Source of the DNA: Promethearchaeota archaeon
GTDB lineage: Archaea; Asgardarchaeota; Heimdallarchaeia; Hodarchaeales; Hodarchaeaceae
Length of the DNA stretch: 64,000 nt
Assembly: GCA_048938105.1 (NCBI GenBank)
Contig: JBHLMN010000023.1
Coordinates: 32,001-96,000 of the forward strand
Direction of reading: 5' to 3'
Shown here: piece after piece, positions 60,881-63,532 of the stretch
How positions within the stretch are numbered: position 1 is the first letter of the stretch
Layout: each line of letters starts with the position of its first letter
Position numbers and translations under genes: made by a program
Notes under the pieces: generated by a model
What the model was told of the DNA's origin: nothing
Database searches by the model: none
The model's input: the letters and a program-made list of their open reading frames with translations, nothing else

Positions 60881-61771
60881 ATGGCAGAAGTAGAGAAATT
60901 TGGTGGATTATTTCGTAGAATAGGCGATGCTGTACATATTGGAACGAAAAAATTTAAAGGAAAGTCAATTTTGAATTCAGATTTTGGTCCAGAAGCAGAA
61001 AGTTCATTGATTTGTAGGTTAAAATCCGAAGATTTTGATGGTTTTCGGAAGTACGATGGATTCATTGTTAAAGACCCAGAAAATGCGATTTTATTACAAT
61101 CTGGATCTTTAGTAGGGGTCGCTGGCAGTGGTATTTACGAGCTGGATAAAAGTGCTAAACGACCTGGAAGTGAAATTATCTGGGTAACAAAGCGGGAATT
61201 CATTATCAAATGGGGAACACCTGGGATTTATACCTCTGATAATATAATGGTTGGTTGTTATGGTATTTCTCGTATGAGGGTTGTCAACCCCCGTAATTTT
61301 ATTATGAATGTTGTTTCACATAAACAGTACTATTCTGGTAATGAATTAAAGAATTGGGTCAAGCAGACAATTATAGCTGCCGTAAAACATGTTTTATCTC
61401 GATATTCTGTACCAGAGATGCTCAAGGAGCGTAGAAGTTTAGAAATCCAAACACGTTCAGAACTTGGACCTGAAACTTCTCGTTGGGGATTAGAGTTAGT
61501 TGGACTGGATATTGGGGGCTTCAAAGTACCTGATGAATATCAAGCCTTGTTATCATATGAAATCGAAAAACAGGTTTTGAAGCAACGCAGGGAGTTAGCA
61601 GAAGAAAGAAAAATGTTTGATGATTTAACGGAAAAAGTAAAGAAATATGAACATATGCTTGAACAAGCTGATGAAATGTTTCTCAGTGGTAAAATCTCAG
61701 AGAAAAAGTATAAGGAACTTACAGATAAATATTCTAAAAAATTAGCTCAATTTAAAGCTCAAATTTCATGA
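60881..61771 (+). CDS. SPFH/band-7 domain protein (YdjI-like) with coiled-coil C-terminus
   Basis: AILLQSG...GSGIYEL, IKWGTP, RVVNPRNF, WGLELVGLDIGGFKVPDE. Tail ADEMFLSGKISEKKYKEL is SHOCT-like. No clear TM helix. Confidence 0.82.
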   Translation: MAEVEKFGGLFRRIGDAVHIGTKKFKGKSILNSDFGPEAESSLICRLKSEDFDGFRKYDGFIVKDPENAILLQSGSLVGVAGSGIYELDKSAKRPGSEIIWVTKREFIIKWGTPGIYTSDNIMVGCYGISRMRVVNPRNFIMNVVSHKQYYSGNELKNWVKQTIIAAVKHVLSRYSVPEMLKERRSLEIQTRSELGPETSRWGLELVGLDIGGFKVPDEYQALLSYEIEKQVLKQRRELAEERKMFDDLTEKVKKYEHMLEQADEMFLSGKISEKKYKELTDKYSKKLAQFKAQIS

Positions 61772-63532
61772 TAATTTATTTTCCTGCAAACTTCCTCCAC
61801 ATTCTGGGCATAAAATCATTTCTACTGTACTCATTTCTTTGTAGCAATCCAGGCATACTTTTAAGCTACAAGATGTGCAGAAATAGTTAATAGAATCAGT
61901 TTTTGGAAGTTCACATACACCACAAAGAAATTTTTCTTCGTGTTTTTTCAATTGTAAGGTCATTTCTCGAATGTTGATCTTCCCTTGAATTACACCACGT
62001 AAGATATAGTTTTCTAATAATACGATTGTATCGCTATCAGATCGGTTTGATAAATCTATTATTTGTTTGAGTGGAATTTCAGCTTTAGACGACTTTTCTA
62101 GAAATTCAGAGAGACTTGGATCTAATTCAGATGATTTAAGTGAAATTGGTTCGTGTTCTATCCATCCGATTTTTAAAGGACCCTTTTTGCAGAAATGACA
62201 CTCCTCAGTGCTAACTAAATTATAGGAATGAGTGTAATTAACTCTACAATATGGGCAATATCTGGGAAGATCGATAATAAATGCAGAAATATTTCTACAA
62301 AACGGACATTCATGTTTACTTCCAGTAGAACGGCAATTTGAGCACATAATTCGTCTACAATTTTGACATTCAAAATAAAGATCCGGATCAGTATATGAAG
62401 ATGTGTCTATTTGGCAAAAAATTTCAAAATGGTCTACACCTTTAACTAAAAAGGGATCAGAGGTTTCTCCCGAGATAAGTCGTAATCCAAGGAGTTTCGC
62501 TAGCTTAAAAATCCGATCTAAAAGTTTTAATGGGTCTAGATTCAATGATGATGCTAAATGTTCAACAGCAATTCCATTTTCGAACCACTCGTTTAAAGAA
62601 GGAGCAATGAAATCTTCTGTAGTTAAAGTCCCCTTTAAACTTTGATTTAAAATATTTAACAGTTTAAAAAAATCAGACCTGTCTACATCGAGACGTTGAA
62701 TCCAGAAATCAATAGGAATATTACGATAAACGAATATATCTTTTAAGATTTGGTTTATAATGTCCATAATTGGATAGAGGTAATTGTAATTAGCAGAAAA
62801 AATATAGCTGATTTGGTCACGATTTGCCTCCAAAAATTCTAGACATTTCTCTTCAGAGAGTTGTGTTAATTTACTAATATGGCTAATAGAGACTTCAGAT
62901 TCCAAGAGAAAACTTGTATCGATAAAACGAATGACATATTCGATATTTTTTCGAATATCTGAGGGAGATGAGAAGTTTAAAGAAGTGAAATTATATATTC
63001 GTTGTTTTATTGGATCAATGTAACCAATGAAATGACTATCCTGAGCAAGAAGCTCCAGAACACCTTCCAAATGTTCTTCAGCCCAGTAAAGCTGGTTCAA
63101 TAGGTATTTCAATCCTATTGCCGTGGTAGTGTTTAACCTTTGTCTGATTTCTGCTTTGGCTCCAGGTAAGGTATAGAAATTTCGGTTTATTATATCAAAG
63201 AATCCCTCAAAACTTTGAGCTCCTATTTTAATTTGTTGTTCTAGTAATTCTCCTGGTAAGTTTGTAGTGTCAATAAGATTACATATGTCTATAAAGCCTT
63301 TTGTTGCCAATTCACGGGATATTAATTGGTGAAGGAAGTTAATAGGGATGAATTTTTCATCATCAAAACTAACAAAGCCATTCAGCTCATTTGAGCCAAT
63401 TTTTGTGCGTAAAAATGCAGCAATAACGCTTGGATTTTCCTTCGGAGCCATTTCACGGAATTTAAGAGGAGTATTTGCCATTTGAGCCTTTGTTAACCAT
63501 TGATGTCTCTTTCTCCCAAACATTGGTATCAC
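61766..63532 (-). CDS. Winged-helix/PCI-repeat protein with two RING-like fingers and a Zn ribbon (putative E3 ligase; N-terminus UFL1-like)
   Basis: CQID..CQNC..CSNC..CPFC; CPYC..CHFC; PCI-like ILRGVIQGKIN; CGVC..CTSC..CLDC..CPEC. Confidence 0.6.
   Translation of the reverse strand: MIPMFGRKRHQWLTKAQMANTPLKFREMAPKENPSVIAAFLRTKIGSNELNGFVSFDDEKFIPINFLHQLISRELATKGFIDICNLIDTTNLPGELLEQQIKIGAQSFEGFFDIINRNFYTLPGAKAEIRQRLNTTTAIGLKYLLNQLYWAEEHLEGVLELLAQDSHFIGYIDPIKQRIYNFTSLNFSSPSDIRKNIEYVIRFIDTSFLLESEVSISHISKLTQLSEEKCLEFLEANRDQISYIFSANYNYLYPIMDIINQILKDIFVYRNIPIDFWIQRLDVDRSDFFKLLNILNQSLKGTLTTEDFIAPSLNEWFENGIAVEHLASSLNLDPLKLLDRIFKLAKLLGLRLISGETSDPFLVKGVDHFEIFCQIDTSSYTDPDLYFECQNCRRIMCSNCRSTGSKHECPFCRNISAFIIDLPRYCPYCRVNYTHSYNLVSTEECHFCKKGPLKIGWIEHEPISLKSSELDPSLSEFLEKSSKAEIPLKQIIDLSNRSDSDTIVLLENYILRGVIQGKINIREMTLQLKKHEEKFLCGVCELPKTDSINYFCTSCSLKVCLDCYKEMSTVEMILCPECGGSLQENKLS

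What the first reader, a model, noticed from the sequence alone, without database searches (positions are those of the whole stretch)
61766..63532. UFL1-like winged-helix scaffold fused to two RING-like fingers, convergent on the ESCRT-II/SPFH pair
Seen: N-terminal repeats (LISRELATKGFIDI..NLPGELLEQQI..GFFDIINRNFYT..KAEIRQRL..LEGVLELLAQDSHFIGYID) that by recollection resemble the winged-helix repeats of the UFM1 E3 ligase UFL1. These are followed by a RING-like finger with a C-to-D substitution, a Zn ribbon, a PCI-like winged helix and a C4C4 RING-like finger. Its stop overlaps the SPFH stop region by 6 bp. Eukaryotic UFL1 has no RING, so a UFL1-like/RING hybrid would be notable. Inference: an E3 that tags cargo for the neighbouring ESCRT module, or a ribosome/translocon-associated ligase.
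Basis: partly seen in the sequence, partly recalled or inferred. Interest (0 to 1): 0.75.

Follow-up and report, generated by a model that had tools for sequence, protein, structure and literature searches.

The report
UFL1-like archaeal scaffold with RING-like fingers
This Asgard-archaeal (Hodarchaeales) gene encodes a distant relative of the eukaryotic UFM1 ligase UFL1 that, unlike UFL1, carries two RING-like zinc fingers and sits beside a ubiquitin-type E1/E2/tag/protease gene set, so it is probably that set's untested ligase.

Summary
The ORF is real and conserved. Its true start is the ATG at 63523, giving 585 aa.

Anatomy:
- six N-terminal winged helices (wH)
- a cross-brace finger with Asp at the second ligand position
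- a C4 zinc ribbon
- a PCI-type wH
- a C4C4 cross-brace finger

The wH array is specifically UFL1-like. A family profile finds human UFL1 first in the PDB (E 2.6e-6), and Foldseek gives UFL1 1.8e-9 against 8e-5 for the next fold.

It is not a UFM1-pathway enzyme. The 99%-complete genome gave no Ufm1, UFC1 or DDRGK match. The adjacent cassette, just past the window edge, is ubiquitin-type: a UBA1/UBA3-like E1, a Ubl ending in GG, a UBE2D-like E2 and a JAB protease.

Ubl, E2 and JAB stay beside relatives at only 22-29% identity. A co-fold of the C-terminal finger with the E2 scored 0.78 (best control 0.03), but on an atypical E2 surface.

Most likely (about 0.6) it is the cluster's E3. UFL1-like "E3" genes in Asgard ubiquitin-ESCRT clusters are already published. 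I found no paper describing this two-finger form, which was found only in two related families (order Hodarchaeales). This scan has already reported orthologues of this gene from other genomes, with the same reading.

The parts
61766..63523 (-). Whole gene: 585-aa UFL1-like scaffold with zinc fingers (stop codon 61766-61768; the listed ORF extends to a GTG at 63532)
   Evidence: ATG with GGTGA 6 nt upstream; orthologues start at the same Met; no TM-like segment.
62435..63523 (-). N-terminal helix plus six tandem winged helices (aa 1-363), the UFL1-like scaffold
   Evidence: AlphaFold pLDDT above 90. A1 profile against PDB: UFL1 at E 2.6e-6 to 1.1e-5. Foldseek: UFL1 8ohd_A 1.8e-9. VIA: 229-283 collinear residues, Z 10.1-10.3. 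PF09743 above its cut-off in orthologue P0040.
62294..62422 (-). Finger 1 (aa 368-410): cross-brace RING/PHD-like finger with Asp373 at the second ligand position
   Evidence: Invariant C370, D373, C386, C389, C394, C397, C406, C409. D373 column is C or E in distant relatives. Aligns to the KMT2D PHD finger at E 0.046. Sub-threshold Prok-RING_4 in relatives. Atlas structure neighbours are RING families at TM 0.44-0.52, leads only.
62183..62263 (-). C4 zinc ribbon (aa 421-447)
   Evidence: C423, C426, C442 and C445 are invariant in all ten divergent sequences. They are kept even in P0076, which lacks finger 1.
61940..62128 (-). Seventh winged helix (aa 466-528), PCI-type and weakly DDRGK1-like
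   Evidence: Pfam PCI at 33-37 bits (cut-off 22) at this position in divergent members. VIA Z 8.2-9.1 to PCID2, Rpn and CSN wH; Z 7.2-7.4 to DDRGK1. A3 profile against DDRGK1: E 0.026.
61793..61930 (-). Finger 2 (aa 532-577): C4C4 cross-brace RING-like finger, the predicted E2-binding element
   Evidence: Eight Cys invariant in the 31 orthologues. Profile hits to RINGs: UHRF1 6e-4, MAT1 0.003, BRE1 0.003. Foldseek: RNF4, RNF20 and Bre1 RINGs and the p62 ZZ domain. VIA: Nbr1 ZZ, Z 6.4. Co-fold with the E2: 0.78 against 0.03.
63649..63963 (+). Divergently transcribed 104-aa zinc-ribbon protein with a basic tail ending KIRLFYKK; a conserved neighbour of the target
   Evidence: Present next to the target in L010, L011, the P0068 contig and L012, at 32% identity in L012 with the ribbon and tail motif kept. 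No Pfam family.
60881..61771 (+). SPFH/Band 7 gene, convergent on the target with a 6-bp overlap
   Evidence: PF01145 at 58.9 bits. In the P0069 lineage SPFH and the target are co-directional and overlap by 13 bp.
59869..60870 (+). EAP30 (ESCRT-II Vps22/36-like) gene, upstream of SPFH
   Evidence: PF04157 at 39.3 bits. EAP30-SPFH-target adjacency is kept in L010, L011 and L012.

Best explanation
The gene encodes the substrate-recruiting E3 ligase, or the E3 scaffold, of the ubiquitin-type conjugation cassette next to it. That cassette comprises E1, a Ubl ending in GG, a zinc-ribbon pseudo-E2-like protein, a UBE2D-like E2 and a JAB deubiquitinase. It starts 4 bp beyond the window end.

Proposed mechanism:
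- The C-terminal C4C4 cross-brace finger, and possibly finger 1 as well, binds the E2 charged with Ubl.
- The rigid array of six UFL1-like winged helices and the PCI-type wH act as a platform. They hold a target or partner complex, plausibly the adjacent ESCRT-II (EAP30) and SPFH proteins.

Shown: the domain anatomy, homology to UFL1, conservation, the ubiquitin-type nature of the cassette, and gene linkage.
Inferred: E3 activity, E2 recruitment by the finger, and the identity of the targets.
For: 1. UFL1-type scaffold. Profile against PDB: the top four hits are all UFL1, E 2.6e-6 to 1.1e-5. PF09743 matches 18 of 31 members, and P0040 is above the cut-off at 27.5 against 23.2 bits. Foldseek: UFL1 at 1.8e-9, the next fold at 8e-5. 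The match is collinear over 229-283 residues.

2. RING-like features of finger 2. The spacing is C4C4 cross-brace. The residue two after Cys1 is V, I or L in all 31 orthologues, and the last pair is usually CP(E/D)C. The best sequence matches are RING domains. Finger 1 keeps the same two hallmarks, I372 and P407.

3. Co-fold of finger 2 (with 2 Zn) and the neighbouring E2. Score 0.78 in all three runs; best of 3 controls 0.03. The mark was reached by 58 of 80 solved complexes and 2 of 110 mismatched pairs. The runs agree in 100% of contacts and the partner pLDDT is at least 84. The finger side of the interface (V536-E538, C560, E563-M564, T566-I571, P573-E574, G576) is the classic RING E2-binding face. 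Caveats: my own alignments were used, and Zn rode along, unlike the calibration. RING-E2 complexes are abundant in the PDB, so the pass may partly reflect likeness to solved structures.

4. The cassette is complete and ubiquitin-type. E1 matches UBA1 at 8e-40, with UBA5 only at 2e-19. The Ubl matches only ubiquitin and ends in KGG. The E2 matches UBE2D at 8e-20 and has HPN and Cys98. A JAB protease is present. No other E3-like gene is in the cassette.

5. Linkage survives rearrangement. P0068 (29% identity) sits by JAB and E2, with E1 nearby. P0075 (22%) and its 618-aa paralogue sit by Ubl, JAB and E2. P0069 (27%) is co-directional with EAP30-SPFH and 8 kb from E1-Ubl. The E2 beside P0075 is 66% identical to this one.

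6. In other Asgard lineages the UFL1-like domain is fused to DDRGK, PCI and a Vps28 C-terminal domain (10.1101/2020.10.19.343400). That independently ties the scaffold to the ubiquitin-ESCRT system.
Against: - No biochemical data exist.
- No Pfam RING model reaches its cut-off. The window's own protein scores only C1_2 at 21.5 against 26 bits.
- The fold search matches ZZ domains at least as well as RINGs: p62 ZZ TM 0.71, Nbr1 ZZ Z 6.4.
- There is no conserved basic 'linchpin' residue after the last Cys.
- The predicted E2 contacts (aa 10-36, helix alpha1 and strand beta1) are not the textbook L4 (F68) and L7 loops. The geometry may therefore not be the activating RING-E2 pose.
- Within Hodarchaeales the whole region is collinear, including GINS, S27e and eIF2alpha. 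Synteny at that depth is therefore weak evidence.
- A paralogue with the same build sits away from any ubiquitin gene.
Confidence: 0.6

Rival explanations
1. It is a non-catalytic adaptor. The winged-helix array and the fingers, acting as ZZ/PHD-type readers of a peptide end or of the Ubl, bridge ubiquitylated proteins or the E2/pseudo-E2 to ESCRT-II/SPFH without stimulating transfer.
For: ZZ domains are the best single-domain structural matches to finger 2: p62 ZZ TM 0.71 and Nbr1 ZZ Z 6.4, rmsd 1.9, 47 aligned. The C-x2-C spacing at ligands 3-4 is ZZ/C4C4-like rather than C-x-H. There is no conserved linchpin residue. The predicted E2 surface is atypical. In other Asgard lineages the scaffold is fused to Vps28, an adaptor part.
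Against: The best sequence matches are RINGs, not ZZ. The RING E2-contact hallmarks are conserved in both fingers. The co-fold with the E2 is far above controls. The cassette otherwise lacks an E3.
Confidence: 0.22
2. It is a true functional UFL1, a scaffold-type E3 that works with a UFM1-like modifier and a UFC1-like E2, perhaps on ribosomes.
For: The wH array is homologous to UFL1. wH7 is weakly DDRGK1-like, E 0.026.
Against: The 99%-complete genome gave no Pfam Ufm1, UFC1 or DDRGK match. The E1 is UBA1/UBA3-like, not UBA5-like. The E2 is UBE2D-like with HPN. The Ubl matches only ubiquitin. The target has no counterpart of UFL1 beyond about residue 364. Eukaryotic UFL1 has no zinc fingers (established knowledge).
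Confidence: 0.04
3. It is a nucleic-acid-binding or chromosome-associated protein made of winged helices and zinc fingers: a TFIIE/RPC-like transcription factor, a SelB-like RNA binder, or an Nse1-like kite subunit with a RING.
For: Foldseek gives SelB tandem wH at 8e-5 and Pol III/TFIIIC subunits at about 0.02. Nse1 (wH plus RING) is the top hit for the C-terminal half at 1.8e-3.
Against: All these matches are at least three orders of magnitude weaker than UFL1. No SMC, kleisin or transcription genes are nearby. The SMC preprint states that archaeal kites lack the RING (10.1101/2024.01.07.573240). Linkage is to Ubl, E2 and JAB.
Confidence: 0.05

Closest known systems
Eukaryotic UFL1 (E3 UFM1-protein ligase 1; Pfam PF09743; PDB 8ohd, 8qfc, 8b9x, 8c0d) with DDRGK1
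   Same: N-terminal helix followed by a collinear array of PCI-like winged helices. Target aa 1-306 align to UFL1 58-364, and aa 1-254 align to the DDRGK1-UFL1 chimera. wH7 resembles the DDRGK1 wH weakly.
   Different: The target has two cross-brace zinc fingers and a zinc ribbon where UFL1 has its C-terminal domains. The genome gave no Ufm1, UFC1 or DDRGK match. The partners are ubiquitin-type. Only some members reach the Pfam cut-off, and the window's own protein does not.
Asgard UFL1-like 'E3' of ubiquitin-ESCRT clusters, and the DDRGK-UFL1-PCI-Vps28 fusion proteins (PMC9192718; 10.1101/2020.10.19.343400; PMC10183829)
   Same: The UFL1-like wH region is homologous: hhalign probability 93%, E 2.5e-7, target 34-177 against 291-434. 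It belongs to the same phylum and shares the association with ubiquitin and ESCRT parts.
   Different: Those proteins are about 790 aa, with DDRGK, three PCI and a Vps28 C-terminal domain, and carry neither of the two cross-brace fingers; one has a sub-threshold zinc-ribbon match near its N-terminus. The finger-bearing form was found only in the window's own family (19 of 19 genomes) and a sister family (1 of 2), not in the other families of the class that were searched.
Caldiarchaeum subterraneum ubiquitin operon with its small RING E3 (PMC5654768, cited in PMC9192718)
   Same: An archaeal operon-type Ub/E1/E2/JAB set with a RING-type E3 candidate.
   Different: By my recollection of that paper (not tested here), that E3 is a small stand-alone RING protein. 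Here the fingers sit on a 585-aa UFL1-like scaffold.
C4C4 RING fingers (CNOT4, TFIIH p44), MAT1/UHRF1/BRE1 RINGs, and ZZ domains (p62, Nbr1)
   Same: Eight-ligand cross-brace spacing. Weak profile matches to the UHRF1, MAT1, BRE1 and p44 RINGs. Structural matches to RNF20, Bre1 and RNF4 RINGs and to ZZ domains.
   Different: No Pfam RING or ZZ model reaches its cut-off. Finger 1 has Asp at a ligand position.
Nse1 (SMC5/6 kite subunit: tandem winged helices plus a RING-like domain; PDB 7dg2)
   Same: A winged helix followed by a RING-like finger. It is the top Foldseek hit for aa 355-585 (E 1.8e-3, 155 columns).
   Different: The match is weak, with no SMC or kleisin context. The N-terminal array matches UFL1 far better.

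Membership tests
UFL1 (PF09743 / E3 UFM1-protein ligase 1) | Scores above the Pfam gathering cut-off (23.2 bits) | tested here: inconclusive
   The window's own protein has no PF09743 hit at E up to 1. Orthologue P0040 scores 27.5 bits and 18 of 31 members match at E up to 0.1. The genome's 914-aa paralogue scores 26.2 bits.
UFL1 (PF09743 / E3 UFM1-protein ligase 1) | Sequence and fold homology of the tandem winged-helix array to UFL1, beyond generic wH/PCI | tested here: met
   In the profile search the top four PDB hits are all UFL1, E 2.6e-6 to 1.1e-5, and the next wH protein is at 0.06. Foldseek gives 1.8e-9 against 8e-5 for SelB. VIA gives 229-283 collinear residues.
UFL1 (PF09743 / E3 UFM1-protein ligase 1) | Acts with UFM1, UFC1 and UBA5 | tested here: not met
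   The 99%-complete genome gave no Ufm1 or UFC1 match. For UFC1 the control genomes did not ring either, so that search is weak. The adjacent E1, E2 and Ubl are UBA1/UBA3-, UBE2D- and ubiquitin-like.
UFL1 (PF09743 / E3 UFM1-protein ligase 1) | Scaffold-type E3 without RING, HECT or RBR; C-terminal domains beyond the wH array | tested here: not met
   Target aa 364-585 are filled by two cross-brace fingers, a zinc ribbon and a PCI-type wH. The UFL1 alignment ends at UFL1 residue ~364.
UFL1 (PF09743 / E3 UFM1-protein ligase 1) | DDRGK1 partner completing a composite winged helix | tested here: inconclusive
   The genome gave no PF09756 match. Target aa 1-254 align along the whole DDRGK1-UFL1 chimera 8b9x. 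wH7 matches DDRGK1 at E 0.026 and Z 7.2-7.4, but generic PCI wH score Z 8-9.
RING-finger E3 | Eight zinc ligands with cross-brace spacing | tested here: inconclusive
   Finger 2 is C4C4 and finger 1 is C-D-C6, both with RING/ZZ-like spacing, and the ligands are invariant.
RING-finger E3 | Match to a curated RING model, or a clear RING sequence match | tested here: inconclusive
   No Pfam RING family is above its cut-off: zf-RING_5, zf-C3HC4_2, Prok-RING_4 and C1_2 are all sub-threshold. Profile against PDB: UHRF1 RING 6e-4, MAT1 0.003, BRE1 0.003. On fold, RINGs and ZZ domains match about equally.
RING-finger E3 | E2-contact residues: a hydrophobic residue two after Cys1 and Pro after Cys7 | tested here: met
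   Finger 2: V, I or L at position 536 in all 31 orthologues, and CP(E/D)C at 572-575 in most. Finger 1: I, V or L at 372 and an invariant P407.
RING-finger E3 | Basic 'linchpin' residue after the last Cys | tested here: not met
   The residues after C575 are G-(G/E/S/N)-x-L, with no conserved Arg or Lys.
RING-finger E3 | Binds an E2 and stimulates transfer | not testable with these tools
   There is only an in-silico co-fold: 0.78 against a best control of 0.03. It engages E2 helix alpha1 and strand beta1 rather than the L4/L7 loops. Activity needs a bench assay.
PCI domain (PF01399) | Winged-helix subdomain preceded by a helical-repeat subdomain | tested here: inconclusive
   The wH part is met: PCI scores 33-37 bits (cut-off 22) at wH7 in divergent members and VIA gives Z 8.2-9.1. 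The window's own protein scores only 11.5 bits, elsewhere in the sequence. No helical-repeat subdomain precedes wH7 in the model.

The most novel reading that the evidence does not exclude
This Hodarchaeales protein preserves a pre-UFM1 state of the UFL1/DDRGK1 lineage. In that state a winged-helix scaffold used its own RING-type fingers to drive a ubiquitin-type E2, coupling tagging to ESCRT-II/SPFH membrane machinery. Eukaryotic UFL1 would then have arisen from such a protein by losing the fingers and switching to UFC1 and UFM1.
Probability: 0.15. Interest if true: 0.8.

Novelty: new variant of a known kind. Interest (0 to 1): 0.55.

Why it matters
UFL1 is an unusual eukaryotic E3: it has no RING, HECT or RBR domain, and its origin is unclear. 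Picchianti et al. (PMC10183829) proposed that UFL1 and DDRGK1 arose in Asgard archaea before UFM1 existed and had another function. This protein offers a concrete, testable candidate for that function. It is a UFL1-type scaffold carrying its own RING-like fingers, encoded with a complete ubiquitin-type cascade and next to ESCRT-II and SPFH genes. Its lineage, Hodarchaeales, is by my recollection often placed close to eukaryotes. All partners are small soluble proteins encoded side by side, so the cascade could be reconstituted in vitro.

Tried and rejected
- Pfam on the window's own protein gave nothing above a cut-off.
- Genome searches for Ufm1, UFC1 and DDRGK found nothing. The UFC1 control rang nowhere, so that negative is weak.
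- Model coordinates are not exposed to scripts, so Cys-Cys distances and the cross-brace pairing could not be measured.
- The Foldseek-independent search of aa 355-585 was dominated by wH7, so the fingers were barely tested.
- The Atlas feature search for aa 362-455 gave scores of at most 0.81, which is chance level. Its structure neighbours are RING families at TM 0.44-0.52, leads only.
- The Nse1/kite reading was considered and rejected on context and on the weakness of the match.
- A membrane anchor was looked for in the target and not found.
- Literature searches found no description of the finger-bearing form. The library is incomplete, so this is not proof of novelty.
- The identity of IPR018611 with UFL1 rests on my memory of InterPro. 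It is consistent with that paper's use of 'Asgard archaeal UFM1' sequences as an outgroup.
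Full report
**1. Observation**

The six-frame listing shows one long ORF at 61766..63532 on the minus strand (588 codons from a GTG). A GGTGA lies 6 nt upstream of the ATG at 63523. The database copy of this protein (P0002, 585 aa) and all orthologues begin at that Met. I therefore take the gene as 61766..63523 and use 585-aa numbering throughout. A hydropathy scan finds no membrane-spanning segment.

**2. Family and conservation**

The protein belongs to a narrow, well-conserved family.
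- A word-indexed search found 64 clusters, nearly all ~583 aa. The named ones come from Hodarchaeales, Hodarchaeota or Heimdallarchaeota metagenome bins.
- An exhaustive HMMER scan of 1.84 billion representatives found only 26 clusters at E up to 0.001.
- In a sample of 300 genomes of the phylum, the full-length form was present in 19 of 19 genomes of the window's own family and 1 of 2 in a sister family of the same order. It was found in none of the other families of the class that were searched.
- An alignment of 31 orthologues (A1) has 60% mean column identity and invariant Cys/His/Asp clusters.

**3. Anatomy**

The AlphaFold model built on A1 is confident: mean pLDDT 85.4, above 90 through aa 1-350. 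It shows these parts in order:
- An N-terminal helix followed by six winged helices (wH), to about aa 363.
- Finger 1: C370-x2-D373-x12-C386-x2-C389-x4-C394-x2-C397-x8-C406-x2-C409.
- A zinc ribbon: C423-x2-C426-x15-C442-x2-C445.
- A linker.
- A seventh wH (aa 466-528).
- Finger 2: C534-x2-C537-x11-C549-x2-C552-x4-C557-x2-C560-x11-C572-x2-C575.

D373 is invariant in the 31 orthologues. The same alignment column holds Cys in the 27%-identity relative P0069 (CQIC) and Glu in P0075. The stretch aligns to a PHD finger with C-x2-D opposite the first C-x2-C (E 0.046). One exception is the 914-aa paralogue, where the hhalign alignment puts Lys there.

The zinc ribbon is the most conserved element. 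Its four Cys are invariant in all ten divergent sequences, including P0076, which lacks finger 1. P0075 lacks finger 2 but lies next to a full-length 618-aa paralogue.

**4. Is the N-terminus UFL1-like or just generic wH?**

Four independent tests point to UFL1 specifically.
- The A1 profile searched against all PDB sequences returns UFL1 chains as its four best hits (E 2.6e-6 to 1.1e-5; profile 22-168 against UFL1 20-233). The next wH protein is at E 0.06.
- PF09743 matches 18 of 31 members. P0040 exceeds the curated cut-off at 27.5 against 23.2 bits. The window's own protein does not reach it.
- Foldseek on the full model gives five UFL1 chains at E 1.8e-9 to 1.7e-7. SelB follows at 8e-5 and the COP9 signalosome at 5e-3.
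- A second-look alignment shows UFL1 is the only hit that is collinear over 229-283 residues: target 1-306 against UFL1 58-364, and target 1-254 along the DDRGK1-UFL1 chimera (Z 10.1-10.3). The other top hits cover only one or two wH.

The refutation criterion, "matches only generic PCI/wH", is therefore not met.

wH7 is a PCI-type wH. Pfam PCI scores 33-37 bits against a cut-off of 22 in divergent members, and VIA gives Z 8.2-9.1 to PCID2, Rpn and CSN. DDRGK1 is its best sequence match, but only at E 0.026, and structurally it is no better than generic PCI (Z 7.2-7.4).

**5. Not a UFM1 system**

The genome is 99% complete at 5.85 Mb. It has no Pfam Ufm1, UFC1 or DDRGK match.

The DNA just beyond the window (L009) carries a complete ubiquitin-type cassette:
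- The E1 (409 aa) matches UBA1 at 8e-40 and UBA3 over the longest stretch. UBA5 scores only 2e-19.
- The 109-aa Ubl matches only ubiquitin and ends in KGG.
- A 264-aa protein has no Pfam family.
- The E2 matches UBE2D2/D3 at 8e-20 and has HPN and Cys98.
- A JAB/MPN protease follows.

**6. Gene linkage**

Two Hodarchaeales relatives, at 67% and 49% identity, keep the same gene order: JAB-E2 / 263aa-Ubl-E1 / small zinc-ribbon gene / target / SPFH-EAP30. The whole region is collinear there, so this says little.

The divergent members are more informative:
- P0068 (29% identity) lies by the zinc-ribbon gene, JAB and E2, with E1 4 kb away.
- P0069 (27%) is co-directional with EAP30-SPFH and overlaps SPFH by 13 bp. 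E1, Ubl and the 265-aa gene lie about 8 kb away.
- P0075 (22%) and its paralogue lie by the Ubl, JAB and an E2 that is 66% identical to this one.

Linkage to Ubl, E2 and JAB therefore survives rearrangement. Linkage to EAP30-SPFH is seen in three of the four lineages that could be judged.

**7. Are the fingers RING?**

Evidence for:
- The spacing is that of C4C4 cross-brace fingers.
- Both fingers keep the two classic RING E2-contact positions, a hydrophobic residue two after Cys1 and Pro after Cys7.
- The best sequence matches of finger 2 are RING domains: UHRF1 6e-4, MAT1 and BRE1 0.003, TRIM56, RING1B, TFIIH p44.
- Foldseek finds Nse1 (wH plus RING), RNF4, RNF20 and Bre1 RINGs.

Evidence against or undecided:
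- No Pfam RING model reaches its cut-off.
- ZZ domains match structurally at least as well.
- There is no conserved linchpin residue.

I used the single complex job on finger 2 (aa 514-585, with 2 Zn) against the neighbouring E2.
- The score was 0.78 in all three runs, and the best of 3 controls was 0.03.
- The mark was reached by 58 of 80 solved complexes and 2 of 110 mismatched pairs.
- The runs agree in 100% of contacts, and the partner pLDDT is at least 84.
- My own alignments were used and Zn rode along, so the calibration holds only roughly.
- RING-E2 complexes are common in the PDB, so part of the pass may be likeness to solved structures.
- The finger residues in the interface are the canonical RING face.
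- The E2 residues (10-36) map to helix alpha1 and strand beta1, by alignment with UBE2D. They do not map to loops L4 and L7. The pose is therefore not the textbook one, and its catalytic meaning is open.

**8. What is already known**

- Hatano et al. (PMC9192718) surveyed Asgard ubiquitin-ESCRT clusters using IPR018611 as the marker for 'E3'. From memory, that entry is the UFL1 family.
- Liu et al. (10.1101/2020.10.19.343400) described Asgard proteins that fuse Vps28/Vps23, adaptin-like domains and E3 UFM1-protein ligase 1.
- I confirmed such proteins in another Asgard family. They are ~790 aa, with DDRGK (48-51 bits), PF09743 (62-75 bits), three PCI and a Vps28 C-terminal domain. They are homologous to the target over wH1-wH3 (hhalign probability 93%, E 2.5e-7).
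- Picchianti et al. (PMC10183829) concluded that UFL1 and DDRGK1 originated in Asgard archaea and may have had a UFM1-independent function.

The UFL1 link and the ubiquitin-ESCRT context are thus known. I found no paper describing the finger-bearing form. This scan has already reported orthologues from several other genomes with the same reading.

**9. A paralogue**

The same genome encodes a 914-aa protein on contig C20 (L019:6406-9147, minus strand).
- It has about six hydrophobic segments in aa 17-371.
- It has a PF09743 match at aa 378-487, at 26.2 bits, above the cut-off.
- Its C-terminal half is homologous to the target's aa 364-585 (hhalign probability 97%, E 3.8e-11).
- It is not next to ubiquitin genes.

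The wH7-plus-finger-2 module also occurs in other proteins of these genomes.

**10. Verdict**

- Most likely (about 0.6) the protein is the E3, or E3 scaffold, of the adjacent ubiquitin-type cascade. Its wH platform may engage ESCRT-II/SPFH.
- A non-catalytic adaptor role is the main rival (about 0.2).
- A true UFM1 ligase role is essentially excluded.
- It is a new variant of a known kind.

Noticed in passing
window 63649-63963 (+): A 104-aa protein with an N-terminal C4 zinc ribbon and a basic tail ending KIRLFYKK lies beside the target in every lineage where it could be checked. This includes the 27%-identity lineage (32% identical there). It has no Pfam family. It may be a partner or a substrate.
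   Followed up: partly
G000:C20, L019:6406-9147 (-): A 914-aa paralogue. It has about six hydrophobic segments in aa 17-371, then a PF09743 match (26.2 bits, above the cut-off), then a finger 1 / ribbon / spacer / finger 2 half homologous to the target (hhalign E 3.8e-11). It looks like a membrane-anchored version of the same build, away from ubiquitin genes.
   Followed up: partly
L009:5642-6184 (+), about 2.6 kb beyond the window end: The E2 has an unusually long gap between HPN (81-83) and the catalytic Cys98, about 7 residues more than UBE2D by my count. The insert, KTQWKWGSN, is nearly invariant across lineages. The E2 stays 66% identical where the UFL1-like protein has dropped to 22%.
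   Followed up: partly
L009:4626-5420 (-), beyond the window end: A 264-aa protein with an N-terminal CxxC...CxxC zinc ribbon and no Pfam family. It is always encoded upstream of the Ubl and E1.
   Followed up: no
L016:4952-7321 (-) and L017:5180-7558 (+), other Asgard genomes: Proteins of ~790 aa combining DDRGK, UFL1, three PCI and a Vps28 C-terminal domain, all above the Pfam cut-offs. DDRGK and UFL1, which are separate proteins in eukaryotes, are one chain here. The neighbours are a PPIase and glycosyltransferases, not ubiquitin genes.
   Followed up: partly
L014:1653-5242 and L015, metagenome contigs: Two divergent family members lie back to back: 618 aa with both fingers, and 548 aa without finger 2. 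Ubl, JAB and E2 are immediately adjacent.
   Followed up: partly
window 59869-61771 (+): The EAP30 (ESCRT-II-like) protein has an extra N-terminal region of ~135 aa. It is followed 10 bp later by an SPFH protein for which the reading showed no obvious membrane segment. The pair looks like an operon and is kept next to the target.
   Followed up: partly
window 54753-55259 (-) and L009:7859-8983 (-): A Roadblock/LC7 protein lies inside the window, and two tandem Arf-family GTPase genes lie just beyond the ubiquitin cassette. Relatives also carry a Roadblock / small GTPase / Roadblock trio nearby. The region is dense in eukaryote-like trafficking genes.
   Followed up: no
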